Shown in pieces: positions 1-31,140 of a stretch of DNA of 64,000 nucleotides; position 1 is the first letter of the stretch; every line of letters begins with the position of its first letter. The notes under the pieces are model-generated. The model worked only from the letters and a program-made list of their open reading frames with translations. It did no database searches and had not been told where the DNA came from. Made by a program: the position numbers and the translations under genes. The DNA comes from Prorocentrum cordatum (taxonomy: Eukaryota), in the NCBI GenBank assembly GCA_963575745.1, contig CAUYUJ010000225.1:124001-188000 (forward strand), read 5' to 3'.

Positions 1-242
1 CTAGCACGGCAGTTGCTTCGTTTGTTGTATGTGTGTGCCTTGTGTGTTTGTGGCTTCCCACCGCCAGCATACACGATGCATGTGTACATCGCCCACACGG
101 CGACGACGGCGACTGCGGCGACGACAGCAACGACGAAGACGACGAAGACGACGCTGATGGCGACAACGACGACGACGACGACGACAACGATGAGCGGAGC
201 GCTTTCGGCCCGCCCCCCGCTAGGCCCGTATACCCACACACA

Positions 243-249
<7 letters not shown>

Positions 250-279
<30 letters not shown>
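250..279. repeat. (TA)n microsatellite
   Basis: Direct reading of the sequence. Confidence 0.95.
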
Positions 280-281
<2 letters not shown>

Positions 282-2232
282 TCGTACGCACCTCTCCGAG
301 GGAGTAGAGCTCAAAGCCGATTAATTGAAGGCGGCGTCCGCGATTTTTCTGGCCGTTTCGCTGGGGGCATCTTCGAAATTCTGAAAATCGGTGGCACCCA
401 TCACGCAGATCGCGACGGAAGGGTCCAAAAACACATGGGGATTTCAACATTCGAACATAAAATCTTCAAAAACACATTGTATTTTCAATGATTTTGACCC
501 TGGTCCTCAGAGAATGGCGATTTCGCCTGAGACATCCTCCCAAAATCGAGCCCCCACGTACCTTCTGGTACCCCAGACCCCACCTCGGAGTTTCTTGACA
601 GCCTCCTCGAAACTCCTGGGGTTTTCTGTGCCTTCTGGTACCCCAGACCCCGCCTCGGAGCCTCCTGGGGGTCTCCTGGAACCGCCTGGGGCCTCCTGCG
701 GCCTCCTGGAGCCTCTTGGGGTCTCTTGGAGCCCCCTGGGGCCTTGTGGGGCGTCCTGAAGCCGCCTGGGGCCTCCTTGGGCCTGATAACTACATGCGCA
801 CGCAGAGACACAAATCACACCCAACACATCACACGCTAGACAAAAATAACACACACACACACACACGCACACACACACACAGACACACAGACACACAGAC
901 ACACATACACACACACAACACCTGCAACGCACAGAAAACACGCACAACACAGAGCACACATCACGCACATTTTTTTGTCTGCGGGGCGAGAGCGAAACTC
1001 CTCTGCTAAAAGCTAGGCGGGCGACGCGCAGCTTTAATCAAGGAGACAGGGCACAGGAAGGCGGGGCTTCAGGTGGCCAGAGCAGGTGGAGCCCGGGATG
1101 CAGGCGGTGCCGAAGAGCTTGCGCGGGAAGAAATACGCCGCTGACGAGAACCGGGGGCGAAAACCCGGAAGGCGAAATAGATGGTGTAGCAGTCAGCGGC
1201 GCGTCGCGAGCACCAACATCAAGCACAGCGGGGGAGGACGCGCCACTTGACCAGGTCGACGCCCAGGAAGGAGAAGAACACCAAGAATGCGATGAGCAAC
1301 GTTGTGCCACCGGATGATGCGGAGGAGGCCCAGGAAAAAGAAGAACACCACGAAGGCGAGGTGCATCGTTGTGCCACCGGGTGATGTGGAAGAAGCCCTG
1401 GGTGGTAGTCCAATCCACGACAAGGTAGTAGCCTGCTTGAGGTGCGGCCACGGACGAGGGGGCCGTACATGACCGACAGGGTGTCGGTGGAGTGCAGGGA
1501 GAAAACCAGCCCTGCACCGTCAGCGCGTGGAGACGGGCAGCAACCACACACGATGCACTGACATCTGCATGCCGAGGGCCGGGCCTGAGCCGCGCAGCGC
1601 CATGGCGAGCGGGGCCGCCGAGGCGGCAAGGTGCAGCGCCCAGCACCGGGCCGAAGCCGCGCAGCGCCGGGCGCTGCCGCCATGGGAGGGTGGGAAGGGA
1701 GCGGGGGGGGAAGAAGCCAACAGGGAGGAGAAAGGCCGGCGCGCCACGCCAGCCGTCGTCGTGCCAGCCCGCGCCGTAAGTGCTCACGTGGGGGGACTGG
1801 GTCCCGATGGGTACAGGTAGGACACACGGTCCCAGAACATGTTAAAGACAGGTGAAGGGGGGGGAGCAGGTACAGTCGGAGACCAGGCGGATCAGCAAGC
1901 GGTCGCTGCGCGTGGGCCGTGCACGTCACAAGTGCTGCGGGGGTACTGGTAGGGGGGGAAAGGAAGACACGCGCTCCCAAGTCAGGTGAATAGGGTGGGG
2001 GAAGGGAGCACAGATGGTGGGGGTGGCCAGTGGTGGGTAGGACCTTGACCTTGCCGCAAGTTGCGGGAGCGTAGGAAGGCAGTCGCGTCGCGCGAGCAGG
2101 GGGACACACGGTCCCAAGCCAGGTGAAGAGGGAGGGGGAAGGGGGAACAGGTGGTGGGCGTGGCCAGCAGTGGGTAGGACCAGGACTTGGCGCACGTTGC
2201 TGGGAGCATGGAAGCGCCCGCGGCGTGCTGTG

Positions 2233-5200
2233 TCAGCAAGGGGAGGCCCGGTCGCCGGCTGGGCAGCGCCTAGTGCGCTTTCCGGTCCAGTTGTCGTTGT
2301 ACCCAGAGCTGCGTGCCCGGTCGTCTCCGCGCCCATCACCTTTGGCGACCTTTCTTTTCCTCTGGGCGCCCTGGCACAGAGCCTTCTCACGATCCCTGTC
2401 CACGTGGACGCCGGTGTTGCGAGACCACGCCTCCACGTGATGGTTGCCGGTGTCCATGTCTTCCAGGAATTTGTCGATTATCCAGCGTTGCCAGCGGTTC
2501 GGGTCGAAAGCGACCTGGTCTTTGGATTTGCCCTTGCCCTGCTCCTTACACATATGCCTGCGCCACGAGTGCCAGGCTGCGTTGAAGTGGTATCATCCTT
2601 CTGCCTGCAGGCGTGTGATTCATGTCTCGTGTGGGCGGCGCTGCCAGCCGACGCGGAAGATTGTCCCTGGGCGGCTGGGGTCAGGGTGGTGGCGGTCATC
2701 CCTGTGGTAAGAGCTGCGCGGTTCTGGCTGGCGCCAGGGGGTGCTCCCTGTGCCCCTGCCACTGTCGTGGTCCTGATCCCAGTAGCGCTCCCTGGTTATG
2801 TCCCAGTCGTTGGCGTCGTGCTTGCGCCACGGTGCCCCCGCTGCGCCCTTGTTGCGGTCGCGGTCGCGGTCGCGGTCGCCCTCCCCAGCGCGGGTCGGGT
2901 CGCTAGTCTCTCTGGACGCGCGCCTTGCCGCAGTCTCGCACGACTCTCAGGCGACTGGCTCCCGCGCCCTGCCGCGCAAGTGCTCTAGCTCGTGCGCAGG
3001 GAGGGGGGTGAGTGCTGGGCGTCGGTCTTCCGGGCCTTTGGACCTGGTCCGCGCGCGCAGCGCCCGGCTGTCGGCAGCGGCCGCCAGGAGCGCGCCGGCA
3101 GGCTGGGTCTGGTAGGTACTGCTTGAATCGCGCTCGGGACTGCTGCGTCGTTCGCCACGAGGACTCGTCTTGGCTTGGCCCTCCTCGACTGTGTCGGAGT
3201 CTGAGGATGAGGAGACCGTGTGGACCGTGCTTAGGGCCTCTGCGAGGCTCAGCTTCTTCTCTTGTTCCTGGTCGTCGTTGGTCAAGTCGGGGTCCTCCTC
3301 CTTAGGGGGCACAAGGGGCGCAGGTTCGTAGGTGGGATCTTGTGTGTCTGCACGCGGCGCGCAAGGTTCGAGCTTGGAGTCGGCCTGCGCCCTTCTGGGG
3401 ACGTCACTTTGTCGCCCCCGATGTCGGCGCCGAGCCTGGGACTGGCGGGGGCCGCTGGTGCCTGCGCCCCGTGCACCTCGCTGTGGGTTCTGCCCAGGAA
3501 GGCTGCTGCCCGGGGCGCTGCGTCTCCGCGGAGGACGTTCGCGCGTAGCGTCCTGGCACTGGTGCCCCATGCGTCCAGCCACTCGCTGCCGATCTGGACG
3601 AACAGGGTCCGCCCGTCCTGTTCGCGGGCCAAGACGTTGAGGACAGGTCCGAATACCGCTCCGTCCAGGGGCCGCGTCGACAGGGGCTCGTTGCTCTCCG
3701 CCGTGCTGAACCATCTGGCGCGGGGGCGGTGTCGCCCCTGATGACCGCGTAGTCGCCGCCCTGGATGCACGGGCTGCCCGTTGCGAGCGGGCAACAGGAG
3801 CCCGTGATGGGCGTGTCCGGGACTCGCCCTTGCTGCCGCTCGCGGCTGCTGGGTTCCGCGCACTTTCCGGGGGGTTCACCGCGCCGACGGCCGGTGGCGC
3901 CCCGACGGACTTGGTAGCTGTAGGTCTTGTGGCGGGCGGGGCCAGCGCCGGCTGGTCGCCGCGCGGAGTGGGCGGGAGTGAGTCGCCACCGTGAGTGGGC
4001 GGGCAGGGTGTCAGGCGCCTTTCCTTGGCGGGTCTTGGGCACTCAGCCTGGTTGGAGGCGTGGTCGGGGCGCGCGCCCGCTCGGGGGGCGGTGTGCTGCC
4101 GGGGCTCGCTGCTGGACGTGTGCCCGGTGGTTGGCTGGGCTGAAGCCGTGGCGCTGGGGTCTGCGTGCCTGGCCCCACGGCTGCGCGCCTCCTCGTCACC
4201 TTCGTCCCTGATCTGTGCCGCCACTTTCGCGTGCGTCTCCCCGTCCGCCGGCTGCCGCTCCCAGGCGAGGTGTTGCCGCTTGTCCTTGGGAGGTGGCGGG
4301 AGTGAGTTGTGGAGGCGCTCGTGGTAGATGCGCGCCTCCTCGTCCCAGGCAGCAGCACGTCGCTGCACTTCCTCCTGGTTGGGGCGTGCTGCGACTTCTG
4401 GCGACGAGGCGGGGATGCCCGGTAGTCTGGCTCCAACGCCAGGGTACACGTCAGGGCCATACCTTTCGAGTGCCTGCTTCACTGCTGACGGGGCCATGTC
4501 CCATTGGTGGGCCAAGCACCCCTTGCAGCACCAGCCCGCGTGCCAGCGCTTTGCCAGGAACGTCTCCCTCATTAGTTGCATGGGTGGGAGCCCGTGGACC
4601 AGGCCAAAGCCGGCGCGGAGTCCTCCTGTGTCAGCGGCGTGCCCATGCATGCCAGGGTAAGCCTGCCCTGGTCCCCATTCGTGCCCCTCTATGCCCGGGG
4701 GGCAGCCGTCGCATCGCCAGATGCCGACATTCTTCTCGTGGAAGTGGGAGATCAGGCGATCGTCATTCGCGTTGCTGGCTGGGGGGGTGGTTCCAACATT
4801 AAGAGAACTCAGGTCGCCTTCCAGCGGGGCCAGCAGCTGGTCCAGGGGTGTTGGGGCCGTGGGTGTTCACGTCGGACACAGTCCCGGCAGGGCGCGCGTT
4901 GTGCGCACAGGCATGTCGTCGGGGCGGTCGTTGATCCAGTCCTTGAAGTCCACGTCGTCTGGAATGGGCTGTCGCTCTGCCATGGCCTTCGTGGTCCAGC
5001 AGAAGATGCGCAGCAGGGTGGGGTCCCTTCCTTGGTAGTACTCCGTCAGCCTGTTGACCGTGCTGGTTTGGCGGATCCGCTTGCTGACGTAGGCGCCTTT
5101 GTCGTGCTTGAAAGGGCCGCGTAGGCGCCCTTGGCAATAGAAATCGGCCTTGTTCTGCTCCTTCGCCCACCGGGTCTCGGTCGTCGATCCGCGGGGGCCC

Positions 5201-8200
5201 TAGCGTCACTCCAGGGCGTGGCCCGGGCGGGGCGGGCGCGTCCAGGTGCAGGCGCGTGTGTGAATGCCGTCCACCTATCCAGGTGACGCTGCTTGTCTGC
5301 TTAGTCGGGTCGTCGGCGGGGCATGGCGAGGCCGATGTCGGACCCAAGCGCGCCAACGTAGAGTGCGCATGCGGCGCGCTCCTGGAACGCCAGGGCTGAC
5401 AGGTCGGCGGTAGACGCGGTGCCTTCGATGACCGCGAGGGTGGCCTGGAGTGGGAATTTCCTAGCCACGAAGTCCTTTCAGGCCGCGGGGCAGTTCGCAC
5501 TCTCGGCCCGGGGGTGGCGGCGGGCGACCATGACTAAGCGGGATACCGCGGTGATCAGGAGCTCCAGCGCCGAGTGCAGCTGCTTGAAGTGCTTCCACTG
5601 TAGTCCGAACGGTGCGCCTAGCTGGTCGCGAGCAGTCTGGTCGCGCGGGCGGTGCGGCTCGCACAAGCCAAGGATGGCCTCGATCACGTCTCCAATGCCC
5701 TCGGCGCCCCCGGACGGATACAGGCAGGTGCGCGATTCGCGTTGCATGGGCAGGGACAAGGCGAGGAGGATCCTGGCCTGGATGGCGCCCAGAGTCGCGC
5801 CGGTGCTGTCCAGGAGGCCGTTGAGAACTGTGGCCTGGCGCCCCTTCGGGCCCATGTCGCAGAAGGCTTGAAATACTGGCGGTGTGGGTGGCTCCTTGTG
5901 TCCTTGTGCCTTCGGCACTTGCAGGTGGATGGCTGCCAGCATTTGGGTCTGCGCCTGGGGGCGTCTGCGGGGATGCAGGCTTCCTTAACGTGCCACGCTG
6001 TCGGCATATTCGGTCGGTCCCTTCGGGGCGGGATCAGGCTGGGGCCGACTGCGCGTGCGTTGTCGTCGTCCGCGACTCCGAGTCCTATAGCCCACATGAT
6101 GGTCGCGAAGACCGCCGCGTAGACCAAGTTGCCGGCGTCCAGTCCTACAAGTGCAGAGCAGAAAAAGAGGTACCCGTTCATGCTCCATCCTTCCCGTCCT
6201 GTAGGCCGGGGTCTGTTGGCTGATCCGAAACGCCGTGCCGGTGCGGATGCAGCCCGAGGCACCATAGTAGGCAGGGTCCGAATGCTGGGCAGCCTGGTAG
6301 TCTCGCCGCTGCAGCGTTGACGTCGTCCTCCAGGTCCTTCCAGTTTTGGTCGGCAGGGAGCGGTAGGTCGGCGCGCGCCGAGAATCCAGCCTGTTGAGCC
6401 TGACGGGCCTCGATCACTTCCTTCTCCTTTCGTCTGCGTTCGGCTTCCGCCAACGGCCGGGCCTTCTCCTCTGGGTTGGCGGTCTCGGGGATGTCCTCCT
6501 CTAAAACCTTTGAGTCAGCCGTGGACTGGCGCGGGGATCCGCCCCGGTTGATGTGGAATTCGAAAGCGAGGTCTGCCTTCTGGGCCCAGGTGCTCAGGTG
6601 ATGGAATGCAGCGTCTGTGGCCGTGCGGAACATCCTTGCGCCCGCGGTCATGATAAGGTTGCATTGTTGGCGCGTCAGCCCCACGTCGACGCGGTGCTGG
6701 TCGTCCACGTGGCCCCAATTAAGGATGGAGTTGGCCCGGGTGGTCATTCGGATGACGACGGAGGCCTCTTGCCCCTGGGCGGCGTCGATGGCGGCGACGC
6801 GGATCGCCTCGCTTTCCAGGAGGTCTGGAAACAGGTTTGCGATGCCACTGAAGCGTTCGCTCAGGCCGTTTGCCGCCGTGGCGCGATTGATCTACGTCCC
6901 TCCTGTGGGCCCCTGCCCCGCCCCCGTTGGCGCAGGGGGCCGGGGCCGCCCGTGTTCGTCTCGGATCCTTCCCCTTGCGCCGCCCGCGAGCAGCGTCTGA
7001 TGTCGTGGGCCGTGCAGTGGTTGCCTGCCAGCGCGGGGGTCAGCTGGAGCTTGTACGCCGACAGTGCGAGGATGGTGCTGTTGGTCCTTCTTACCCATGG
7101 TACGAGGGCCTTCACAAGGGCAACCACTGCGCGCGCTTCGTGGGTGTTGGCGCAGCCGCCCTAGATCGTGGACTGAACCTCTTGCGAGGGGATGTGAGCA
7201 AGTATGGAGCGATGCCGATCGTAGACGGCGCCGCCGATTCCCTTCGGGGCCATGCACGCTGCGTTGCTCTGGAATCCGCCTGCGGCGTCGATCAGGGAGT
7301 CGTCGGGCTCGTAGTTGCCGTCCTCGTTCCTTGCTGCTTCGTCTTCTTGGTCGGTCAACGGTCGTGCGAGTGGCCACCCCAGTCCTTCGGCGCATGGTCG
7401 CTGTAGCGTGGGGTCCAGGATGGCGGAAACCAGCCTGCCCCTGTGGAACGTGAGCGAAGGCCATGCGAGCAGGGGCGGATGGATCCGATAGCACCCCTCC
7501 AGAGTGACGCTGCACTCGGGGATGTTCCCTATGGCTGCCACGTACTTGGCGAGAATGGACATTCCTAGCCCCCAGCGCAGTGCCTGCTGGGATTTGACCG
7601 TCGGGCACAGCTGCCGCTCGTCGCCGAAGAGGACCGTTCTGGCACCGCATCTGACAGCGTGGTTCAAGGACATGATGGCCATGGGCTCGGACGTTTGTCC
7701 TGCCTCGTCGAGGAGACATCTGGGGAACTTCTTGTCCCAGAGGTCGGCCCCCGCCTCGCGCGTGGCCAAACTAAATTTTGCCTCTGTCGCGACTCCCTCT
7801 CGGAACTTGCGGAACCAGCTCGCGTGCCCCGTGGTGACCTCGCCCTCCGATATGGCGTGCACATAGGCGTACTTGGCGGCGGGGGTGGTCGTGCCACGCT
7901 GCCCTTGACCTTGTCCTCATGTGCGAGTCGCGCGGCCATGCGCGGGAACGGGTCTTTGTTGGCTGGGTTCAGGTTCTTTCCAATTTGCTCTGCTGCCAGG
8001 TTGTCCATGGATCCGCCGGTGCCGCCAAAACACCCCACGCCCCGCCCTGGGGCGAGGCGCGACATGTAGGCGTCCGCCACGCAGGCCGCGACCTTGGTCT
8101 TCCCGGTTCCGGGAGGCCCGTGGCACAAGGGAAGGAGAGAGTTCTGGGTCGCAAGCACGCAGCGTCGTTGGGCGTCGCTGGCGCGGTGCAGGTTACAGAT

Positions 8201-9199
8201 GTGCTCCAGGTGTTCCTCCTTAGGAGCCGGCAACAGTCGTTGTAAGACGCTCCCCGGGAAATCCTCCGCCTGCTGAGCCGTCAGTGCGGGTGTGCCCGTG
8301 CGCGGGTTGGCGCTGGGTTGGTCGGGGTCGTCGATAGCGCGCTCCAGTGTTACCGAGGCCTGCGCCAGCAAGAGATCTGCCGCTTCGCCCTGAGCCGGCG
8401 CGGCCCGGGCCCCGGCCTTGCCGTCGCAGTCCTCGCGCCGAAAAACGAACGCCCAAACGATGGGCGGGAGGGCAGTGCCCCAGAGGGCCGCCCTATCGCA
8501 CCCGACTGAAAATAATTCCCGTATCGCCGCGTTGACCCTGTTGAATTGGGCCTTCCTCGGGGTGCGATCGACCGTGTAGTATTGTTGGCCCGGGCTTGGC
8601 GTTGGAACTGTGCCGTCGTTGTCGTGAAAGGGTCCGTTCCTCCTGGCGTTGTAGTGGGCCAGCGCGATTCCCGCGGGGCAGCTCCGGTCTGCGCCCGAGA
8701 CCCCGGCGCCGGGGGCGGGAGGCCAGACGCGGGTCATCTCTGCCAAGAAACCCACCGTTGGCGAGGACTTGGAGATTAGGAAGGGGTTCGGGGTGCCTGC
8801 CGTCACGTCGCGCTCTGTCCACTCCATGGCCCACTTCGTGTCCCAAACCAGCAGGTAGTACTCGCTTTGGCCCTGTTGTTGTCCTTTGAGCCGCTCTTGC
8901 CGGTGGTGCCTACTCAGGATCTCCTGGCACTGCTCGTTCGGCTGGAAACAAGTGAGGATCTGCACGTTCTTGCTAGCGATGACTTGCCAGGACGTGGTGG
9001 AGCCGTCGTTGGGCGGCTCCACGTCCGCGTGGAACTCGGTGAAGAAGACCCTCCTTAGCAGCTAAAGAGCTCGGGCAAGGAGCTAAAGTTTAGTTCCTCG
9101 CCGTGTAGTTGCAGCCGTCGAGCCCAGTCGGTCGGCGGCGGGACTGCCCCTGGGACTGGTCCTGGGCAGGGGCGCGCTGCCGAGCCGCTTGGGGGCCAT
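2233..9199 (-). pseudogene. Large multidomain protein (~2300 aa if repaired), broken by frameshifts and stops: Upf1-like helicase, RNase III-like motif, Cys-rich and unknown domains
   Basis: Likely start ATG GCC CCC AAG CGG (MAPKR) at 9199. Protein-like segments continue across ORFs 7664..9022, 7161..7862, 6861..7127, 6178..6747, 5684..6265, 5478..5942, 2947..4650, 3282..3863 and 2233..2553. Confidence 0.65.
6600..8190 (-). pseudogene. Superfamily 1 helicase domain, Upf1/DNA2/NAM7-like (AAA_11/AAA_12 type)
   Basis: Motifs in the correct order: Q-motif SDAQRRCV, I HGPPGTGKT (~8096-8119), II LLDEAGQ, III LFGDERQLCP, IV LEGCYRIHP, then NTHEARAVV and LSAYKLQ, V SIDAAQGQEA, VI HRVDVGLTR. Several frameshifts separate them. 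Confidence 0.92.
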
Positions 9200-9764
9200 G
9201 TACCAAGGGGCGCGCACATCACACGCACAACACTCACACTCCCGGGGCCTCCTGGGGCCTCTTTCGGTATCCAAGTCGGGCCTCCTCTGAGGTTTCCTGG
9301 GGGCCCCTGGCACGCGCGTCGCAGGGCGCGGCAACCCCACTTGCGCCCGAGCGCGACCTCGATCTGAGATTCTCCTGCGTTCACCTCCTGCCTCTTCCCC
9401 TCTCTCAAGCGCGCCCTGGCGGCGCCGCCCCAGCTTCTCCTTCTCCATCTCCGATCCTGCAGTCATGGTGTCTTCCTGCTTCAAACGCCCTTTCATTTTT
9501 TGATATGAACCTGGGCACACACGTGCCACTTGCATATATAGCTCGCCCCCCCCCCCCCCCCCCCGCGCCTCCAAACGACGGACTGGGTGGGTGGGTGGGG
9601 GGGGGGCATCCTCCGCATCTTCCTCCTCTCCCCATCCTCATCTCCTGATCTCCTCATCTTATCTCTTCTCCCCCCTCCTGCTCCATTGAGTCTAACTGAC
9701 TTGCGAGCGCATGGGGCCTCCGACGAGCAAACGCTGGGAGCGCGCGGCAGGGGCTGGCCTTGAC

Positions 9765-10650
9765 AGCGCTGTGTTTTCCAGCTTGTCCAGCTTTTCCTAG
9801 AGACTGCCCCGGTGAAAAGCGCTGCGTTTTCCAACTCTTCCAGCTTTCATCGCAACGAAACCATTGAAAAACGCTGTGCTGTCCAGATTTTCGAGCTCCT
9901 CTCAGTTGAAAGACGTTGTATTTTCAAGCTTTCCAGCTTTTCCCAGAGATTGCCCCGTTGAAGAAGGTTGTGTTTACTAGCTTTTCCAACTTTTCCCAGA
10001 GACCCCCCCGTTGAAAAAAAACGCTGTGTTTTCCAGCTTTAGCAGGGCAATGCGCGGGAGAAGCTAGAAAAATCTCGAAAAGCAGGAACACACAGCGTTT
10101 TTCAATGGGGTAGTCTCTGGGAAAAACAGGAAAGGCAGGAACAGCTGGGCAATGCAACCTTTTCCCACGGGGTCGTCTCTGGGAAAAATGGAAAAGCAGG
10201 AGAAGCTGGAAAGCACAACGTTTTTCAATGGGGTCGTCTCTGGGAAAAAAGGGAAAAGCAGGACAAGCAGGAAGACACAGCGTTTTCCAATTGGGCAATC
10301 TCTGGGAAAAGCTTGACAAACTTGAAAGCACAGCGTTTTTTTTCCAACATGGTAATATCTGGGGAAAGCTGGAAGAGCAGGAACAACAATGTGTTTCAAT
10401 GGGGTATCTGGGAAACGCTGGAAAAGCAAAATAAGCTGAAATCACACAGCGTTTTTCAGCGGGGTAGTCTCTGGGAAAAGCTGGAAAAGCAGGAAAAGCT
10501 TGAAACGCAAACGTTTTTCAATGCGGTAATCTCTGGGGGAGGCTGGGAAAACAAACGAAGCAGGAAAACGCAGGAGCATGAAACCATGGCGTTTTCAATG
10601 GTTTAGCTGTGGCGAAAGCTGGAGACGCTGGAGAAGCTGGAAAACATAAC
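9765..10650. repeat. Two head-to-head arrays of a ~55-65 bp degenerate minisatellite
   Basis: The unit ACAGCGTTTTTCAATGGGGTAGTCTCTGGGAAAAGCTGGAAAAGCAGG repeats in 10060-10650. Its reverse complement (TTTTCCAGCTTTTCCCAGAGAC...TTGAAAAACGCTGT) repeats in 9765-10040. Confidence 0.85.
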
Positions 10651-10723
<73 letters not shown>

Positions 10724-10829
10724 TGTGTGGGGGGGGGGGGGGGGGGGGCTCATGGAAAAGCTGGGGGAGGAGGGAGGAGGAGGAGGAGGGGGGGGGGGAG
10801 GAGGAGGAGGAGGAGGATCGAGGCGGATG

Positions 10830-13800
10830 ATGCCCGCGGGGTAAGGCAACTGCGCCGATCCACAAGTACTCCCGCGCGCGCCCCCGCGCGCGCCCTCGCC
10901 TCGGCGCGGTCGCGCGCCCGAGGCCGTCAGGCAGGCCTCGGCCTCACCTCGTGCAGCCCTCAGCAGCCTCGCCACCTTGGCGGCCATGCCTGGCGAGCAG
11001 CTTCTCTCCCGCGCGCGGCGCCTCGGCCTCGGCCGCGCGCCGCCGCCGCCCGCAGCCCCTGCTTCGCTTCGAGCAGCAAGGCCACCTGCAAGCGGCTGGG
11101 GCCCCTCCGGCATCCTGGCCTCCTCGGCCGCACTTCCGCCTCCCACGGCCCCTGCTTCGCATCGAGCAGCAGAGCCACCTGCAGGCGGCTGGTGCACCTC
11201 CTGCGCCCTGGCAACCTTGGCCTCACGCTGCCGCGGCGGCGCCGCGCTGCACGCGCGCCTGCTGCGCCTCTGGGGCGCGCCCCCTGCCTTGCCGCCCTCG
11301 GGCGGCTCTCCTCTCGTGGTCTCCAGCAGCGCGTCCACGTCGACTTCCTCCGCGCCGCTGGTCTGCACCTTGCTCACTCCTCCTGGATCACCTGCTTCGA
11401 CCATCCCCTGCGAGCTGCCTCCTTCATCATGTGCAGGCAGGTATGCAGCCGTAGCCTCCTGCACACCCGCGCCCGCTCCTGCCGCCGCGGCGCTGGCCTC
11501 CGCTGCCTGGTCTGCCCGTCCGCCAGCCACCTCCGCGTCAAGCAGCTCCCCGCAGAAGTCGTCGAGGCGCGCGATGACGAATGGGACCACCCTCGCTGTG
11601 CGGGGCGCGAGCCCCCGCTGCAGCTTGGCCACCACCGCGCTGCCCGACGCGGAAGGCGGCATCTTGCACTCTCCGCTGAAACCGCATACCCTGGCGGCTC
11701 CCGCGATCCCGCAGAGGCGGCAGGCGACCAGCGGCATCCTGCGCTCCAGCTGCTCATCCACGGTGGGGCGGATGACCACCAGGTCGTGGGCGGTGAGCCC
11801 CTGCTGCCTCAGCCTCCTGTTGGCCTTCGCCGCGTCCGCCACGATGGAGCCTGGGCACTCGCCCACTCTCTCCTCCGACCTGCAGACTTCGCACCACCTG
11901 GGCTGCCCAGGCAGCCCGCGCCAGGTGCAAGCCACCTGCGCTGCTGCTGTGCGCCTCTCAGGAAGAGCCCGCTGCTGCTTCACCTTGCCGTGCGTGGTGT
12001 CGCTGCCGTCAACCCAGGTGCCCACAGCCGAACACCACAAGGCGACCCTGTCCACGAGGCCTCGGCTTTGCGCAAGGCGCAGGCGCTCCTGGCCAGGCAG
12101 GCGCCCAGCATCGGCTGCCGCCTTGGCCGCGCGGTCGGCCAATCGATTGCCGTGCCAGTCACGGTGCGACACCTTCCCAGCCGCCACTTGCTGCCTCGCG
12201 CTGTGGCTGGGCATCCACCTCAGTTGCACCTCGCCGCCCAGCCCTCCACGTTCATCCAGCAGCGCCCAGGCCTGCCTCCACAGGTGCGCCCAAGAATGAT
12301 CACTGGCCGTCGTACGCGCGCGCCCCGCCTGGTAGGAGCCGTCGAACACGTACTTCGAGTCCACAACCAGCACAGTGTCACCGTGCCCGTACCTCTGGGC
12401 CATGATCACTGCCGTGAGCTCGCTGCCGTTGATGTCGACGTACGGGCCAACCACCTGTCCAGCGACCGACGCCCTGTACACATCCTCACCCTGCATCAGC
12501 GCGACGGCACTCCAGCCCGCCGCCGTGAACTCACCGTAGTCCGCCTCGAACACCGAGCCGTCCAGGAAGAGCTCCCCAGCTGGCAGAACGCCCTCCTCAT
12601 GTTCGCCCTTCCAGCATACCAGGTCGCTGGCCTGAGGCTTGCGCACCCCCCCCGGCACTGGCCACAGGCACCTCCCCAGCAGCAACTGGATCCCAGGCTG
12701 CTGCCATCTCCTCCTGAGGTCTTCGAGGTCTGGGGGAAGGGCCAGCACCTCTCGCAAGCTAGCACAGTCACAATGCCTGTGCACCAGGGTGCCCTCCAAA
12801 CCGCACCTTAGACACCCCGCGCAGTTGGCCAGCCCTTTCTCCGCCTTCCGTGCCTGCGTCCACTGCCCGTTGACGATCAGGGACCGCAAGTACGCCATCT
12901 CGCGCTGCGTGAGCCGCGCCTTGACTTTGCCAGCCCCTCCTCCCTGCAGCCCCTCGGGGTGGAGCACTCTCCCTGTGGTGGTCAGCCTCACCAGCGGCTC
13001 GAGCTCCCCGCCTGCTGCCAGGTGGCTGCACCCTGGGTGCTTGCTGACTTGCCTCCACTGCCACCTCAGCACCGCTCGCATGACCAGCTTACGCACGACC
13101 CACGGCGCTACGTCGAAAGGCGCGATGGTGTTGCCGTCGTCCATGACCCAGCCGTTGGCTTCTTGCACCTCCCACCCGATTCTCCGCAGCGACATCACCG
13201 TCGCAGCGCATGGCCCCTGCACGTGAGCCCAGGTGGTTGCCCTTTTGTCCTGCAGACCGCGGACAACCATGTGGAAGGGGCACCCAGTTCTCCCACACCG
13301 CCCGCAGCAGCATCATCACGGGCATGCAGGTCGCGTCGATGTTCGGGTCGAGCCCAGGCTGAAGCATCAGCCCCAGCGACCTGCTCTTGCTGGCCGTGGT
13401 GTTGGAGACCGCCACGAACGACATAGTCCTGGCGCGGTCCAGCTCACCCATCGCGCACCCCGTGATGGCCGTGCCGTAGCCGATGCTAGGGTGCAGCCCC
13501 GTCTTCACAACCCTCTTAGCTGCGATCCTCTTGGCCTTCACCACCTTCAGCACCTTGAACTTCCTCAGCCTTTGCCCCGCCTGCTGGTAGCGGCCCTCGC
13601 GCACCGCGCGCCCTAGCCTCTTGCCCCCGCTGAAGTCACCCCCCAGGTTATGCTCCTGCCGCACCGCCAGCACCCCCAGCGGCTTGCGCAGCCTCTTCTC
13701 CAGCTCCTGCCTCGCCTCAGGGAAGTTGGCGAGGGCTCTGGACTTCTTGACCGCGACCGCCAGGTCCACCTCGCTGAGCAAGACCTTGAAGTGCCCTGGC

Positions 13801-16173
13801 CGCTGCCGTGATGTCCCCGACGACGCGCTGCATGCCCCCAACCCTCCTGATGATGATGTCATCTACGACCACCGAGAGGGCCACCGTGGGCACCAACGCC
13901 TGCAGCCTGTCCAGCGGCTCCAGCAGCAACATCTTGAGCATGAGCGTTGCCAAGCAATCTCCTGGCAGCACAGCCTGCTCCGTGTAGATGGCGTCGCTGA
14001 CCGCTTCGTCGCGCGCCAGCCACCTGGCACCTGGCCGACCTGTACAGACTGACCTGGAGCTTGAGCTGCCACAAGGGGAACCCCGTCTTCGTCGCTGCAC
14101 GAATGAGGTGCCCGTGCTGCACCTGCTCGAACGCCTTGAGCAAGTCCAGGAGCACCAGCGCGGCGACCCAGCTGGAGGCGTCGCCAGTCTCACGCCCTTT
14201 GGCCGTGGCCCACTCGCACTTCACCGCCTGCTGCCAGACCGCCCTCTGGCAGCCCTTCCCTCTGGACGCCCAGAAGAAAGGCCGATCGTTCCTGCTCTTC
14301 CACTCGACTGCCGCTGGCCTGCGCCGCCTCGTCTGGATCCTCGCGAGCACGTGGGCGATGGCCACCGGCCTCACTCCTCCTAGCCTCTTGGCCAGGAAGA
14401 CGATATTGTTGTTCAGCTGCGGCCACTCCGCCGCCATCTCTACGGCCATCACGACGTCGATGAGCGTCTCGAGGCCCTCGTCACTCAGCTCCAGGAACTG
14501 CCGCGGCTTGACTGCCTCGAAACCCGCCGCGGTGCCCTTCCTGAACGAGCGCAGCACCGCCTTCATCTCCTCCACTGTCCGCCTGCCAGGCCTCACACCC
14601 AGATCGCCTGGCCATGCCGGCTCCTCATGGGCGCACTGCACCCTCCAAAGCTTGCCCCATTATTGCTCGAGGGCGTCCAGCTCCTGGCAGAGGCTGTGGG
14701 GGCCTGCCGCGGAGCTGCAGTCGCTGCCTTGCCAGCCGACAGCCACTCTCGTGACTGCATGCTGCCCTCCCGCTCCTCCCTTCAGCTGCTTGTCGACCCA
14801 TTCGTCGAACTGCCTGCCGCGCTCGTCGGTGTCACGCCTGGCGAGCTGACTGGCGCGCACCTTGGCCAGCCTGGCCAGGGTCAATAGGGCCACGGGGTCC
14901 CAGCTCGCAAGCCCTGCATGCTGCAGCACCCTCAGCCACCTGCCCGCCTCTGTGCTGTCATGCTTGCCTCCCAGCTCACTCTCGGCCTGCTCTTGCCACA
15001 GCCTGACCCTCTGAGGCGCCAGCTCCGCCAACCTGGGCAGGAAGCCGAGCGCATCAATCCGACCTCGGGGCGCTTGTGCCCTCGCCGCAGCCTCCAACGT
15101 GTTTGCCACCCTGGCCATCCACGCTGCTTCAGGCGTGTGCCTCGGCGCCCGCGGCTCCTGGATCCCGCTGCGTTGCACCCTCTTGGTGGAGAAGCCCTGC
15201 GCCCTGCCCGCGTACCTGTCCCTCTGGTCCTCCAGCTGGTACACGTCCAGCCACTCCTCCTCAGCGCACTCCAGGAAGGTGGCGAAGGCAGCGGTGGGCG
15301 CGTCCTTGGCGCGAGTGCCCTCGCACTCCAACTCGCCTGCACCGCCGCCTCTCCTCCAGCACCTCCTCGCGCCTCCACGGGAGGCGGGCGGCCTGTCTTC
15401 CCCAGAGGCTGGGGGGCCTCGCGCATGCTCCTTCAGCCGCTTCAACCTGAAATGGACTACCCGCGATTACATACGGTGCCTGGCTCGGATGCATGCTGCC
15501 AGTCCCAGCATGGGGAGCAGCTCCTGGGCATCCTTCATGCCCCCGCTGCTCCGCCACCTCCTCCTCCTCCTCGGGACGGCGGCACCGTGCTGGATGCACC
15601 GTGCTGGATGCCAGTCGGCACCGTGCTGGATGCAGCACTTGCTTAGGTTGCGTCCAGAGGCTGCTGCGGCCAGCGTGGGCGGGGGCGGCAGCGCGCTACC
15701 GAGGGGGCCCCACCTTGCCCTCTGGCCCTCCAGTGGTTTTCCGAGGATGCGATTGGCTATGGCAGCGCCTCGGGGCCACCGCCTTCCCTCCGCACGCTGC
15801 TGCTGGCCAGAGTCACCAGTCCAGTCCTCCTCCTGTGGTATTTCGAGGATGCCGTTGGCAGCGCCTCGGGGCCGCCACCTTCCCACTTCGCTTGGCCTCC
15901 AGCTGGCGGCGGCGCCGCCCTCCCGCGGCCTTGTCTGCTGGCTCACCGCGACGACCAGCGCGTGTGCCACTGCTGAGTGCCTCGCGCCTTTCTCAGCCTC
16001 ATGTGGTTTTTGTTCGAGGATGCCCTTGGCAGCGCCTCGGGGCCACCACCTTCCCTCTTCTGGTGGTCGCCCATCAGCCTCGGCGCCACCCATCTGCGGC
16101 CTCGCCTTCTGGCCTTCGGCTCCGACCAGCCCGCGCTCTGCCTCTTCGCGGCCAGCGCCTGCCTCCCCCTCGA

Positions 16174-16216
<43 letters not shown>

Positions 16217-17253
16217 TTTATTCTTTTTCCGAGGATGCCCTCGGCAGCGCCGCGGGGCCACCACCTTCCCTCTGCGCGCTCCTCCATGCGCGCCACCTCT
16301 GCCTCTTGTTTTTTTTTTTTTTTTTCGAGGATGCCCTCGGCAGCGCCTCGGGGCCACCGCCTTCCCTTCGCACTCCTGCGGTCCTCAGCCTCGTCGCCCT
16401 CCTCTAGCGCCCTCGGCTCACCAGCAGCTGCTGCCAGGCCTACTGTTAGCTGCTCCCTCACGCGCTTCCTCGCCCGCACCCAGCTTCTGCGGTGATCCCT
16501 TGCACAGCATCCGTGCGGCCTTGCCTCAGGAAGCGCCCGAGGCCTCTGCACCACCCCCATGGCGCCCTCCATCTTCTGCTTGGCGACTTCGGCGATGACT
16601 GGCGCGTGCGGTTACACAGGCGAACCCGCCACCACCTGAGCTCCCTGCGCGAGCAGCCCGCGCGACACAAGGAAGTAGTCGATGATCCGCCCTGACGCCA
16701 TGCAGGTGGGCCCCGCGGGTCTGACCACGGACGCGTCGAAGAGCGCCAGCACGCCGCCTGCCTGCAGCTCGTCATCACTGAGATTCCAATCCCCGCCGAT
16801 CACGTACTCTCTGCGGCAATGCCTGAGCCTCCTCGCCAACAATTTGAGGCTCGACATGTTGCTGAGGTTGAGGCCCTCCCCCGCCTCCAGGTACAGGTTG
16901 GCAATCAGAAAGCCGCCGCCACAGATGCCCGAGACCCAGTGCACGTGTACTCTGCCGTCCACCAACACCGCCGCCTGGTGGTCCTGGACCTCCGCCATCC
17001 CGTGGCAACGTCACACCATGGTGATGGGCCCCCCAGTGCTGAGCCCACCTGACTCAGACCTCAACGCTGGCGAACTCCTTGCCCGCCATCCTTGACCACG
17101 GAGTTGAGCCTCAGCATCTCCGCTCCTCCCCTCTAGCAGCCTGGTCTCCTGCACCAGGATGGCGTCGCAGCTCTGCACCTCCTTCACCATCAAGCACTTG
17201 CCCAGGCTGCTGAACGCGTTGACATTGACCGTGCAGATCCTCCAGACGCCCAT
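10830..17253 (-). pseudogene. LINE ORF2: apurinic endonuclease, reverse transcriptase, RNase H (frameshifts and stops)
   Basis: APE: RICTVNVN, ILVQETR, IGGDWN, IDYFLVS. RT: FLAKRLGGVRPVAI, LDLLKAFEQVQH, VLPGDCLA, VVVDD. RNase H: LFLDGS, NGSELTAV, VVDSKYV, WMPSH, GNRLADRAAK. Confidence 0.92.
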
Positions 17254-17260
17254 CCCATCG

Positions 17261-18394
17261 CTAGGACTCTGAGTCCTTCTCCTCCTCCCCCGTGCGCATC
17301 TTCTTGGCATCATTTATGAGCGCCTCAGCCGCCTTCCTCTTGCCAGGGTCCACGAACTGCTCCTCCAGCTCCTTCCAAGCCTGCTGCACCTCAGGGGATG
17401 GCTGCAGCGGCCGAGGCTCCGCCTCAGCAGCCGACCTTGCCACAGCCCCAGCCCTCGCGGGTGCAGCAGCGCCAGCTCCCGCAGGAGGCGGCTGCACAGG
17501 ATCTGGCACCGCAGCACCCTCTCCTGCCGCCTTGCTCTTCCACTCGAACAGCTTCTCGACCGCCTCAGGCAGCTTGACGAACCCCCCGCAGAACACTGGG
17601 TTGGCCGCCACCCCGCTGGACTTGGCCCAGCCCGCGAGCGTCGCCATGACCTCCTGCAGGGAGGCAGGGGTGGCGGACGCTGCCGTCGCCACCTCGGCTG
17701 CCACGGCGGTCCCCGCCAACCTGGCACTCTGAGCTGCCAGCGCCTCGCGCGCTCTGGCGGCTGCCTCGGCCAGCTCCTGCCGCAGCTGCTGCAGCTTCTC
17801 CGTGAGGTCCGCCGTCTCGTTGATGGCCGCCCTCGCCTTCGCCTTGGCCAACTCCAGCATGTGCCCAGTCCGCTTGACCTTCTGCGCCTTCTCGTCAGCC
17901 AGCAGCTGGGCGGCTTTGACGGCCTTATCCTTGGACAGGTCGTCACCCAGCCCTTCGCGCACCAGCCGCCTGGCCTGCTGGAGCTCGCTCCTGATCTTCG
18001 CACTGAACAGCTTGGTCGCGATGGCGAACTGCCCATCTGACATGCTGACGAGCTCACGACGCTCATCGTCGTTGAGCACCACTCCCGCAGCACGCTGACC
18101 TCCTTCACCGCACTCATCGCCTCGCCACCGCGGCGCACGGGTCGCAGGCGCGCCAGCCCCAGCACGTCCACCACGCCCGCCACCGCCAGCGCCAGCAGGA
18201 GCACCGCCACGACCTTGAGCCCCTTGCGGCAGGAAGCTGCCCAGGACCCTCTGCGACGGCTTGCCTCCACCCTGGCACGCGTGGCGACAGCGCACTCGCT
18301 CGGCGAAGTTGTAGTAGCTGCGCTCCTGGCACACCCATCCCAGGGGCCCGCCTGAGCGACCTCCCCCGCGCCCTTGCCCCGCGCCGCGCCCCAT
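17261..18394 (-). CDS. LINE ORF1 (nucleic-acid binding; RanBP2-like zinc finger + coiled coil)
   Basis: Open ~377-aa ORF directly upstream of ORF2. It has an RGG-rich N-terminus, WVCQERSYYNFAERVRCRHAC (degenerate W-x-C...N-x6-C zinc finger) and an A/E/K/Q-rich helical stretch. Confidence 0.75.
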   Translation of the reverse strand: MGRGAGQGRGGGRSGGPLGWVCQERSYYNFAERVRCRHACQGGGKPSQRVLGSFLPQGAQGRGGAPAGAGGGGRGGRAGAGAPATRAPRWRGDECGEGGQRAAGVVLNDDERRELVSMSDGQFAIATKLFSAKIRSELQQARRLVREGLGDDLSKDKAVKAAQLLADEKAQKVKRTGHMLELAKAKARAAINETADLTEKLQQLRQELAEAAARAREALAAQSARLAGTAVAAEVATAASATPASLQEVMATLAGWAKSSGVAANPVFCGGFVKLPEAVEKLFEWKSKAAGEGAAVPDPVQPPPAGAGAAAPARAGAVARSAAEAEPRPLQPSPEVQQAWKELEEQFVDPGKRKAAEALINDAKKMRTGEEEKDSES

Positions 18395-18498
18395 CGCGCG
18401 CAAGACACTGGAGGAGACGCGCCCGACTGCCAGAGCGCAAAGACTCTTGCCTGCCGCGGACTAGCGGCATCCGTTCGACCCCCTCGGGAACCTGGCAC

Positions 18499-18520
18499 CT
18501 TGAGCCAAAATGGCTGCGGA
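18499..18520 (-). other. Dinoflagellate spliced-leader (DinoSL) copy at LINE 5' end
   Basis: The minus strand reads TCCGCAGCCATTTTGGCTCAAG versus the DinoSL consensus DCCGTAGCCATTTTGGCTCAAG (21/22). Confidence 0.95.
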
Positions 18521-18749
18521 GGAGGATCGAGGCGGAGGAGGACGACGACGACGACGAGCAAGCGATAAGTGAAGGCTTTGTGATATTTGTGGTTTGGGGG
18601 TGCTGGAGGGGGGGGGGGGGGGGCGACCATATATGTGTATATGTATGTATGTATGTATGTCTGTATGTCTGTCTGCCTGTATGTATGTACGTACGTGTGT
18701 GTACATATATGTGTGTATATTCGTGTGTATGTCTAGATGTATATATATA

Positions 18750-30468: not shown

Positions 30469-30511
<43 letters not shown>

Positions 30512-31078: not shown

Positions 31079-31130
<52 letters not shown>

Positions 31131-31140
31131 CCATCACCAC

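What the first reader, a model, noticed from the sequence alone, without database searches (positions are those of the whole stretch)
970..9214. RT-less, poly(A)-tailed retroposed unit encoding a giant Upf1-like RNA helicase protein
Seen: ~7 kb of intronless coding sequence starting MAPKR, with all SF1 Upf1-type helicase motifs. It is followed by >4 kb of unrecognised domains, a ~1.2-kb repeat-containing 3' region, an A7 tail and a 13-15 bp flanking duplication that differs by one AC unit. Known: core dinoflagellate genes are usually intron-rich, and Upf1-like helicases (Upf1, MOV10/Armitage/SDE3, nidovirus nsp13) act in RNA surveillance, silencing and viral replication. Inference: this is either a processed copy of an uncharacterised RNA-surveillance gene, or a member of an undescribed family of non-autonomous protein-coding retroelements mobilised in trans by LINEs.
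Basis: partly seen in the sequence, partly recalled or inferred. Interest (0 to 1): 0.85.

Follow-up and report, generated by a model that had tools for sequence, protein, structure and literature searches.

The report
Dead copy of giant helicase gene
This stretch is a broken, front-truncated copy of a very large RNA-helicase gene that exists in many decaying copies in a dinoflagellate-type genome, probably pasted in through an RNA intermediate, so it is a genomic fossil and not a working gene or a proven new kind of mobile element.

Summary
The helicase is real. On the minus strand, window 9205->2236 runs in step, without intron-sized gaps, with residues ~272-2945 of an intact 2945-aa protein (P0004, metagenome). 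That protein has an N-terminal Zn-finger-like region, an Upf1-like SF1 helicase and ~1800 aa of unknown domains.

The window copy is not an open frame. It has 6 frame changes and 7 clear in-frame stops. About 450 residues of P0004 have no counterpart, and the conserved ~270 N-terminal codons are absent. The 'MAPKR' start lies in the wrong frame.

The family is multi-copy. 2-17 diverged contigs of run X1 cover single positions. 4 of 5 close protein relatives carry lesions at conserved helicase positions.

The A7 run and the 15-nt flanking repeat exist. However, the repeat lies in TG-rich low complexity, and 13 of 84 TG-rich 40-mers match as well.

A separate LINE lies just upstream on the same strand (DinoSL relic, APE, RT, RNase H). 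Its exact 19-nt target duplication shows what a clear insertion looks like here.

Verdict: a dead, 5'-truncated retrocopy-like pseudogene of an undescribed giant helicase family. RNA-mediated origin is likely but unproven; the 'new retroelement' reading is unproven.

The parts
2236..9205 (-). Degenerate coding region. It runs in step with residues ~272-2945 of the intact 2945-aa relative P0004. It has 6 frame changes, near 9093-9056, 7895-7890, 6918-6879, 6229-6154, 5906-5900 and 5232-5184. Clear in-frame stops lie at 7161-7163, 5478-5480, 5301-5303, 4867-4869, 2947-2949, 2620-2622 and 2593-2595.
   Evidence: tblastn of P0004 and P0155 against the window; stop codons read directly
8150..9205 (-). 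Family-specific domain that precedes the helicase (RRVFFTEF at 9055-9032). It is shared with P0004, P0152, P0008 and the P. cordatum protein P0155. A ~38-nt insertion at 9093-9056 carries two TAGs. The MAPKR ATG at 9199 is out of the homologous frame.
6500..8150 (-). Upf1-like SF1 helicase core in three reading frames. Motif I is at 8119-8096, motif II (DEAGQ) at 7715-7695, motif III at 7628-7608, motif IV at 7493-7476 and motif V at 6789-6766. Motif VI at 6684-6664 reads TRQQ where P0004 has TRAR. A TAG stop lies at 7161-7163.
   Evidence: Pfam AAA_11/AAA_12; PDB best match Nam7/Upf1
3937..6500 (-). Post-helicase region with no known family. It holds a conserved all-helical-looking block (GWSMNGY at 6190-6170, GDVIEAILG at 5693-5667) and two Cys-rich modules. 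The first has lost its cysteines (5142-5122); the second is kept (4716-4696 and 4530-4510).
   Evidence: no Pfam, NCBIfam or PHROG family
2236..3936 (-). Low-complexity Pro/Arg/Ala-rich stretch and the conserved Trp-rich C-terminal motif (2592-2380), ending at the stop 2233-2235. P0004 residues 1984-2431 have no counterpart between 3937 and 3729.
977..2232 (-). 1.26-kb non-coding tail with tandem repeats (1966-2214, 137 nt x1.8; 1261-1398, 67 nt x2.1). It is also multi-copy in run X1: 4-16 contigs at the listed positions 1068-1892 and 2 at 2208.
970..976 (-). A7 run, the candidate remnant of a poly(A) tail
   Evidence: the frequency of such runs is given
955..969 (-). 3' copy of the TG-rich 15-nt direct repeat. 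It is the start of a ~165-nt TG-rich microsatellite tract (806-969).
9215..9229 (-). 5' copy of the TG-rich 15-nt direct repeat, inside a ~27-nt TG patch. Homology to the family ends within about 10-25 nt of it.
10809..18536 (-). Context, not part of the unit: a separate degenerate LINE bounded by an exact 19-nt target-site duplication (18536-18518 and 10827-10809). It starts with a relic dinoflagellate spliced leader (18517-18499). It carries an APE endonuclease (17313-16385), an RT (about 14659-13862, weak) and RNase H (about 12568-12112). It has no poly(A) at its 3' end.

Best explanation
Window 970-9229 (minus strand) is a dead, 5'-truncated, intron-free copy of one member of a multi-copy family. 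The family is lineage-restricted and encodes proteins of about 2900 aa: an N-terminal Zn-finger-like region, a family-specific domain, an Upf1-like SF1 helicase, and about 1800 aa of unknown domains.

Most likely (inferred), an mRNA of a family member was reverse-transcribed by LINE machinery acting in trans. Synthesis stopped about 270 codons short of the 5' end, and the cDNA was integrated into a TG-rich microsatellite inside satellite DNA. That would leave a short A run and a TG-rich duplication.

Since then the copy has decayed by frameshifts, stop codons, a 38-nt insertion and loss of about 450 residues' worth of sequence. It encodes nothing today.

Shown: the homology, the disablements, the truncation and the multi-copy state. 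Inferred: the RNA intermediate and the LINE involvement. The confidence given is for the whole statement; that the locus is a disabled copy of this family is near certain (about 0.95), and the RNA-mediated origin is at about even odds.
For: Family and collinearity:
- An exhaustive HMMER search with the 251-aa motif II-IV piece gave 1889 hits at E<=1e-3. Five of these were at E<=1e-30: four short fragments at 68-78% identity and the 2945-aa P0004 at 46%.
- tblastn of P0004 covers window 9058->2302 in 7 collinear pieces without intron-sized gaps.

Dead copy:
- Frames run -1, -3, -2, -1, -3, -2, -2, plus one more change upstream.
- There are 7 clear in-frame stops.
- Motif VI has lost its Arg, and the first Cys module has lost its cysteines.
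- The close relative P0001 reads straight through the 7895-7890 frameshift site.

5' truncation:
- P0152 and P0004 share the first ~310 residues (28.9% identity over 13-980 against 2-951).
- No part of the window matches those residues. The best match has E 0.054 and covers residues 314-330 only.
- Homology in the window starts between 9205 and 9162.

Multi-copy and decaying:
- 3034 X1 contigs lie on window 1-11000 at >=80% likeness. 2-17 contigs cover each listed position inside the unit, against 2 at 10949.
- 4 of 5 relatives at >=67% identity carry lesions at conserved helicase positions.

Retrocopy-like ends:
- A7 lies at 976-970, 1.26 kb after the conserved stop.
- The 15-nt flank repeat scores above 99.6% of random 40-mers.

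Setting:
- A LINE with APE, RT and RNase H, an exact 19-nt TSD and a DinoSL relic lies 1.6 kb upstream, so this genome has the machinery.
- In Prorocentrum cordatum, which holds a 56-68% identical relative, mean exon length is 240 bp and 83.7% of genes have introns (PMC10666404, passages). A 6.9-kb intron-free coding stretch is therefore atypical for an ordinary gene there.
- Retroposition is described as widespread in dinoflagellates (PMC12014239, passages).
Against: - The flank repeat is not distinguishable from low complexity: 13 of 84 TG-rich 40-mers of the window score as high. An unbiased search of both flanks found nothing better.
- A7 is short. The 64-kb window holds 18 runs of 7 or more A or T.
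- The one clear LINE insertion in the window has a 19-nt exact TSD and no poly(A). That element gives no sign of using poly(A) tails.
- There is no relic spliced leader at the 5' end. Truncation would remove one, so this is neutral to mildly negative.
- The intact relative P0004 is itself one uninterrupted ORF on its contig. The family may be intron-free at the DNA level, which would remove 'no introns' as evidence for an RNA step.
- No empty site, no copy ends and no parent gene could be examined, because no genome is held.
- Some frameshifts could be assembly errors. Only 12 of the 49 indel rows were shown.
Confidence: 0.55

Rival explanations
1. DNA-level duplicate. The copy is a fragment of an intron-free gene family spread by segmental or tandem duplication or by non-homologous repair. 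It was cut at its 5' side by rearrangement in repeat-rich DNA. The A7 run and the TG-rich flank similarity are chance.
For: - The TSD is not above the TG-rich background (13 of 84) and A7 runs are common.
- Both flanks are high-copy satellite and microsatellite DNA, where rearrangements are expected.
- The intact relative is also one uninterrupted ORF.
- Dinoflagellate families are known for tandem and segmental duplication (PMC11453091, passages).
Against: - Homology ends within about 10-25 nt of the TG patch at the 5' side, and the A run directly abuts the matching TG repeat at the 3' side.
- There is no second copy or partial copy within the 64-kb window, so it is not a local tandem array.
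Confidence: 0.27
2. Dedicated protein-coding non-autonomous retroelement. The ~10-kb helicase unit is itself a selfish element that multiplies through LINE machinery, and this is one dead, truncated member.
For: - Many copies at 80-99% likeness exist in X1.
- Close relatives are mostly decayed (4 of 5), as in transposon families.
- It is intron-free and the 3' tail is also multi-copy.
- Summed contig depth rises towards the 3' end (23, 166, 315 in bins 1836-2202, 1469-1835 and 1102-1468). The tool warns that this is no copy number.
Against: - No mobility domain was found in the 2945-aa protein.
- The 3' end is not shared with the neighbouring LINE.
- Multi-copy decaying retrocopies of ordinary genes are commonplace in dinoflagellates (PMC12014239 passages).
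- Only one intact relative cluster exists among 5.8 billion clusters.
- Nothing distinguishes it from a much-retrocopied host gene.
Confidence: 0.12
3. A working gene whose apparent breaks are short introns, assembly indel errors or RNA editing.
For: - Helicase motifs I-V are still readable.
- Long-read assemblies of GC-rich genomes carry indel errors.
- The gene model of the relative P0155 skips segments as if they were introns.
Against: - The 7 stop codons are substitutions, not indels.
- The conserved N-terminal ~270 codons are absent from the 55 kb upstream.
- About 450 residues of the relative are missing.
- Frame changes fall inside conserved blocks without room for introns.
- No listed X1 indel lies at a frame-change site (12 of 49 rows seen).
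Confidence: 0.03
4. Remnant of an integrated virus or of an undescribed DNA transposon that carries an SF1 helicase.
For: - The ORF is giant and intron-free, with an SF1 helicase and unknown domains.
- There are weak cross-hits to Viral_helicase1 (E 0.014) and to a PHROG of unknown function (7.5e-18, over the helicase core only).
Against: - No relative turned up in IMG/VR contigs.
- No capsid, polymerase, Rep or transposase family was found.
- No terminal inverted repeats were found at the ends.
- The helicase is nearest cellular Upf1/Nam7; coronavirus nsp13 scores only E 0.45.
Confidence: 0.03

Closest known systems
Upf1/Nam7 and the Upf1-like SF1B RNA/DNA helicases (Sen1/SETX, IGHMBP2, DNA2, ZNFX1, Aquarius, nidovirus nsp13)
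   Same: - The AAA_11 + AAA_12 helicase core has motifs I-VI.
- For P0004 the best solved relatives are Nam7/Upf1 (E 3e-21), then a '5'-3' RNA helicase-like protein' (3e-19), Sen1 (3.5e-14), IGHMBP2 (6e-10) and DNA2 (3e-7).
   Different: - No Upf1 zinc-knuckle (CH) domain or any other Pfam family lies outside the core.
- About 600 aa of family-specific N-terminal sequence and about 1800 aa of unknown C-terminal sequence are shared by none of the 153 other retrieved helicases.
- ZNFX1, Aquarius and nsp13 match only at E 0.1-0.5.
- The window copy is a pseudogene.
Dinoflagellate retrogenes and retrocopies tagged by relic DinoSL (Slamovits and Keeling 2008, recalled; Song et al. 2017, seen as a search listing and citation; PMC12014239, passages)
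   Same: An intron-free copy of a multi-copy gene in a genome that carries LINEs and relic spliced leaders, dead on arrival or decayed.
   Different: The defining 5' DinoSL relic is absent here. The copy is 5'-truncated, so the tag could not have been kept.
LINE-1-type processed pseudogenes of mammals (recalled textbook features: no introns, 5' truncation, poly(A), 7-20 bp TSD)
   Same: No introns relative to the protein, 5' truncation, an A run at the 3' end and a 15-nt flanking direct repeat.
   Different: - The tail is only 7 A.
- The duplication is imperfect and sits in low complexity.
- The only LINE seen nearby ends without poly(A).
Helitrons/Helentrons, the known helicase-carrying eukaryotic transposons (recalled)
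   Same: Multi-copy units that encode a large SF1 helicase protein.
   Different: Helitron helicases are Pif1-type and fused to a Rep/HUH nuclease. Neither family was hit in P0004 or in the window.

Membership tests
Upf1-like SF1B helicase superfamily (Pfam AAA_11 + AAA_12) | Both RecA-like halves with motifs I, Ia, II, III, IV, V and VI | tested here: met
   AAA_11 scores E 4.7e-9 and AAA_12 E 1.3e-10 in window pieces. In the relative P0004 they score 1.4e-14 and 1.4e-25. In the window copy motif VI has lost its Arg and the core is split over three frames with a TAG.
Upf1 orthologue (NMD factor) | N-terminal Cys/His-rich CH domain that binds Upf2 (feature recalled) | tested here: not met
   No Upf1 zinc-binding family was found in P0004 at E<=0.1, nor in the window pieces. 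The N-terminal 600 aa are family-specific.
Processed pseudogene / retrocopy | Collinear with the mature coding sequence, with no introns | tested here: met
   7 collinear tblastn pieces over 9058->2302 show no intron-sized gap. Caveat: it is unknown whether any family member has introns.
Processed pseudogene / retrocopy | Poly(A) tail at the 3' end | tested here: inconclusive
   There is only A7, at 976-970. The 64-kb window holds 9 A-runs and 9 T-runs of 7 or more.
Processed pseudogene / retrocopy | Target-site duplication flanking the insert | tested here: inconclusive
   The 15-nt TG-rich repeats differ by one TG unit. They score above 99.6% of random 40-mers, but 13 of 84 TG-rich 40-mers score as high. 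There is no better candidate.
Processed pseudogene / retrocopy | An intron-bearing or otherwise identifiable parent gene elsewhere | not testable with these tools
   No genome is held. The protein searches show only one intact relative cluster, of unknown gene structure.
Dinoflagellate retrogene (DinoSL-tagged) | Relic spliced leader directly upstream | tested here: not met
   The only DinoSL match in the window is at 18499-18514 and belongs to the LINE. There is none at 9200-9300.
Autonomous non-LTR retrotransposon (LINE) | Reverse transcriptase and endonuclease inside the unit | tested here: not met
   No RT or endonuclease family was found in 13 minus-strand pieces, in 10 plus-strand ORFs or in P0004. 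The LINE upstream is closed off by its own 19-nt TSD.
Non-autonomous retroelement partnered with a LINE (SINE-like logic) | 3' end shared with the partner LINE, and many copies with a common 3' end | tested here: inconclusive
   There is no similarity between 977-1200 and the neighbouring LINE's 3' end (self-BLAST; sequences). Copy ends in the genome could not be examined.
Helitron | Rep/HUH nuclease fused to a Pif1-type helicase | tested here: not met
   Neither family appears among the Pfam hits of P0004 or of the window pieces.

The most novel reading that the evidence does not exclude
The ~10-kb intron-free unit is not a much-copied host gene but a selfish, protein-coding retroposon family of dinoflagellates. 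On this reading, a ~2900-aa Zn-finger/Upf1-like RNA helicase gene multiplies through LINE reverse transcriptases. It leaves dozens of 5'-truncated, decaying copies, and the helicase possibly acts on its own RNA or against host RNA surveillance.
Probability: 0.12. Interest if true: 0.7.

Novelty: new member of a known kind. Interest (0 to 1): 0.33.

Why it matters
The locus itself is an ordinary genomic fossil. Retrocopy-like pseudogenes are expected in dinoflagellate genomes, where retroposition is described as rampant.

Two things carry some value. First, the analysis uncovers an apparently undescribed family of giant Upf1-like helicase proteins. Their ~600-aa N-terminal and ~1800-aa C-terminal parts match no Pfam, NCBIfam or PHROG family, and no solved structure by sequence. 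The family is found so far only in this genome, in Prorocentrum cordatum, in one EukProt data set and in a few marine metagenome contigs. It is present as a swarm of decaying copies around very few intact ones. No paper on it turned up in four full-text searches, none of which was aimed at the family itself. Whether that swarm is a retrocopied RNA-surveillance gene or a selfish element can be tested on the whole genome.

Second, the neighbouring LINE offers a clean positive control for how retrotransposition looks in this genome. It has a relic spliced leader at its very 5' end and a perfect 19-nt target duplication. It also suggests that LINE transcripts themselves are trans-spliced.

Tried and rejected
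- The search for homologous proteins with the 465-aa N-terminal frame, 'longer': none.
- The same tool with P0004 residues 1130-1990, 'near': only P0004 itself.
- JGI metagenome contigs, two scans (P0004; alignment A1): pattern matches, but none confirmed.
- IMG/VR contigs: none.
- Sequencing runs: 3 listed and no RNA holder listed. X2 laid 0 contigs, and X3 laid 28 on low complexity only. Nothing can be said on expression.
- Joints 9262->686 and 9263->674 in X1 (table 5c): both ends lie in the same 10-nt satellite. I read them as repeat noise, not as a tandem or circular junction.
- Structure prediction of the pre-helicase domain (window 8150-9055 with 4 relatives) and of the post-helicase block (part of P0004 with two window pieces): mean pLDDT 36.8 and 36.4. 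These are unusable, so no fold search was run.
- ESM Atlas with window 5481-5900: no usable hit.
- An RNase III-like reading of the GDV(I/L)EA(I/V)LG motif (resemblance recalled): not supported by Pfam on the window pieces or on P0004.
- NCBIfam and PHROGs on P0004: helicase core only.
- Rfam on window 1-20000: nothing.
- Bacterial promoter/terminator scan of 800-2400: irrelevant for a eukaryote and empty.
- Earlier findings of this scan: nothing on this genome or sequence. The two items returned are unrelated.
- Idea that the helicase is the 3' part of the upstream LINE: rejected, because the LINE is closed by its own 19-nt TSD at 10827-10809 and 1.6 kb of satellite lies between.
- A named helicase tree (Upf1, MOV10, SETX, IGHMBP2, ZNFX1): not built, because no named reference sequences could be fetched. 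PDB E-value ranking was used instead.

Full report
**What is in the sequence.** The feature lies on the minus strand. There is no 7-kb open frame. Between 970 and 9214 the longest stop-to-stop frames are 639 aa (2947-4866) and 465 aa (7664-9061). The DNA is 60-68% G+C, so long empty frames occur on both strands. Pfam finds the two halves of an Upf1-type SF1 helicase, but in different frames: AAA_11 in 7664-9061 (E 8.8e-4) and 7161-7916 (4.7e-9), and AAA_12 in 6178-6891 (1.3e-10). The other 10 of 13 pieces had no family. All seven motifs can be located. The best solved relatives of the pieces are Nam7/Upf1.

**A full-length relative defines the gene.** I ran an exhaustive HMMER search of 1.84 billion representatives with the 251-aa motif II-IV piece. 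It gave 1889 hits at E<=1e-3, 72 at <=1e-10 and 5 at <=1e-30. Four of the top five are short fragments at 68-78% identity, labelled in EukProt as 'Pyramimonas sp. CCMP1952'. The fifth is P0004, an intact 2945-aa protein from a 12.6-kb metagenome contig. It has a 99.66% identical twin on a 19.2-kb contig.

tblastn of P0004 maps onto the window in seven collinear pieces:

| P0004 residues | Window | Frame |
|---|---|---|
| 311-728 | 9058-7790 | -1 |
| 705-1016 | 7886-6918 | -3 |
| 1035-1276 | 6879-6154 | -2 |
| 1249-1356 | 6229-5906 | -1 |
| 1356-1603 | 5900-5184 | -3 |
| 1579-1984 | 5232-3937 | -2 |
| 2431-2919 | 3729-2302 | -2 |

There is no intron-sized gap, so 'intronless' holds. P0004 residues 1984-2431 have no counterpart. 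The conserved C-terminal Trp-rich motif (2592-2380) and a stop at 2233-2235 mark the end of the coding region.

**The copy is dead.**
- The path changes frame five times within the P0004 map, and once more at 9093-9056. There a ~38-nt insertion with two TAGs separates 9132-9094 from 9055 onward. The first stretch matches the N-terminus of the P. cordatum protein P0155.
- One search lists ten in-frame stops in the seven pieces. Three are in frame-change overlap zones. Seven are clear: 7161-3 (TAG), 5478-80, 5301-3, 4867-9 (TGA), 2947-9, 2620-2 and 2593-5.
- Motif VI reads TRQQ where P0004 has TRAR, and the first Cys-rich module has lost its cysteines.
- The close fragment P0001 reads straight through the 7895-7890 site, so the shift there is a lesion of this copy.
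- The 'MAPKR' ATG (9199-9197) sits in a frame that is not the homologous one.

**The copy is truncated at its 5' end.** P0152 (1038 aa) and P0004 share their first ~310 residues, including a CxxC...HxxxxxH motif (28.9% identity over 13-980 against 2-951). That region is therefore part of the family. Nothing in the 64-kb window matches it: the best hit, E 0.054, covers only residues 314-330. Homology in the window begins between 9205 and 9162 (a GPVPGA motif shared with P0152 lies at 9162-9145). That is directly inside the TG-rich patch at 9215-9241. About 270 codons plus the 5' UTR are missing.

**The ends.**
- The A7 run (976-970) lies 1.26 kb after the stop. The tail in between holds two tandem repeats.
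- The 15-nt repeats (9229-9215 and 969-955) are real. However, the 3' one is the start of a ~165-nt TG microsatellite tract.
- A local alignment of the two 40-nt flanks scores 26. That score is reached by 0.4% of 5000 random 40-mers, but by 13 of 84 TG-rich 40-mers of the window.
- The 5' patch also matches two other places in the 3' tract: a 13-mer at 950 and a 12-mer at 836.
- Runs of 7 or more A or T occur 18 times in 64 kb.
- Both outer flanks carry the same 10-nt satellite.

The ends are therefore compatible with insertion into a TG tract, with a short duplication and a worn tail. They do not prove it.

**A positive control next door.**
- An exact 16-nt spliced-leader match lies at 18514-18499 on the same strand. 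It extends to 21 of the 22 letters of the leader as I recall it.
- It begins a degenerate LINE. The APE endonuclease spans 17313-16385 (Exo_endo_phos profile positions 2-216 of 225, E 3.4e-4, with two stops read as X). There is a weak RVT_1 hit (E 0.017) and RNase H (E 1.6e-6).
- The element is bounded by an exact 19-nt direct repeat with sharp edges at 18536-18518 and 10827-10809. It ends without poly(A).
- The ~70-nt A run at 10722-10652 lies outside that duplication.

Three things follow. The helicase unit is indeed RT-less and is a separate insertion. Retrotransposition machinery exists in this genome. A clear target duplication here looks much better than the one claimed for the helicase unit.

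**Copy number.**
- No genome is held.
- Of three public runs, X1 (DNA?, contigs) held 18% of the sampled words.
- At >=80% likeness, 3034 of its contigs lay on window 1-11000: 195 at >=99%, 438 at 95-99%, 1129 at 90-95% and 1272 below 90%.
- At the 40 listed variable positions (of 1597), 2-17 different contigs covered single sites inside the unit. Examples are 17 at 5063, 14 at 6411, 13 at 7270, 10 at 8751, 9 at 1227 and 7 at 1888. Only 2 covered the site at 10949.
- Part of the total comes from the satellite flanks, and summed depth is not a copy number.
- Even so, the coding region and its 3' tail are clearly multi-copy, with old and young copies.
- Of five protein relatives at >=67% identity, four carry lesions at conserved positions: DEAGQ changed to DEASP or GEAGQ, a ~70-residue gap over motifs II-III, and a lost residue followed by a divergent end. 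The gap could also be a gene-model artefact.

**What the family is.** In P0004, only helicase families hit in Pfam, NCBIfam and PHROGs. By PDB sequence search it is nearest Nam7/Upf1 (3e-21). Next come Sen1, IGHMBP2 and DNA2, while ZNFX1, Aquarius and nsp13 are marginal. None of the 153 other retrieved proteins shares sequence lying wholly outside the helicase core (0 of 246 HSPs). Only P0152, P0008 and P0155 share the pre-helicase domain. Two structure predictions failed for lack of alignment depth (pLDDT 36.8 and 36.4), and the Atlas gave nothing. The function of the intact protein is therefore inferred only from the core: an ATP-driven 5'-3' RNA (or DNA) helicase of the Upf1 group with a possible nucleic-acid-binding Zn finger. 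No mobility domain was recognised.

**Interpretation.** It is near certain that this locus is a non-functional, 5'-truncated copy of a multi-copy giant helicase family. An RNA-mediated origin is the best single explanation, at about even odds. Three observations point that way:
- the coding stretch is intron-free;
- the truncation ends exactly at a TG patch that matches the sequence following the 3' A run;
- the genome setting fits. A P. cordatum relative exists. In that species mean exon length is 240 bp and 83.7% of genes have introns (PMC10666404, passages). Retroposition is called widespread in dinoflagellates (PMC12014239, passages; PMC11453091, passages).

Four points count against it. 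The tail and the duplication are weak. No DinoSL relic is present. The family may be intron-free at the DNA level. No empty site could be examined. The bolder reading, a dedicated protein-coding retroelement, is not excluded, but nothing sets it apart from a much-retrocopied host gene.

**Novelty.** The locus is a new member of a known kind (retrocopy-like pseudogene). The gene family behind it appears undescribed. Four full-text searches returned no paper on such a family: dinoflagellate + retroposition + spliced leader + helicase, P. cordatum genome terms, Upf1-like helicase + transposable element and DinoSL + retrotransposon. None of them was aimed at the family itself, and supplements were not read.

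Noticed in passing
window 10809-18536 (minus strand): A degenerate LINE (APE, weak RT, RNase H) begins with a relic dinoflagellate spliced leader (18517-18499). It is flanked by an exact, sharply bounded 19-nt target-site duplication and ends without poly(A). This implies that a trans-spliced LINE transcript was copied full length.
   Followed up: partly
window 10652-10722 (minus strand): A run of about 70 A follows a C-run and CT-rich low complexity, just outside the LINE's target duplication. It may be the tail of an older retroposed element into which the LINE inserted.
   Followed up: no
window 9767-10656: A satellite of ~60-nt units (TTTTCCAGC...CATTGAAAAACG type) lies in direct orientation at 10060-10656 and in inverted orientation at 9767-10040, forming a long imperfect palindrome.
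   Followed up: no
window 650-784 and 9240-9262: A 10-nt satellite (GCCTCCTGGG on the plus strand) lies on both outer flanks of the helicase unit. It has very high summed depth in run X1 (6152 in bin 368-734).
   Followed up: partly
window 39806-39930 and 50585-50710: A dispersed direct repeat shares runs of exact 19-mers about 10.8 kb apart. Its nature is unknown.
   Followed up: no
window 30270-31600, 40350-40820, 56400-61650: There are very long imperfect trinucleotide arrays (CAT, CTC, TAC types). Arms at 57.4-58.2 kb and 60.0-60.9 kb are 70-75% complementary over 550-725 nt.
   Followed up: no
proteins P0001, P0002, P0003, P0005: The closest protein fragments (68-78% identity) are labelled as a green alga (Pyramimonas sp. 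CCMP1952) in EukProt. Yet the window carries a dinoflagellate spliced leader, and the next relative is from Prorocentrum cordatum. The label may reflect contamination or mislabelling of that data set; this was not examined.
   Followed up: no
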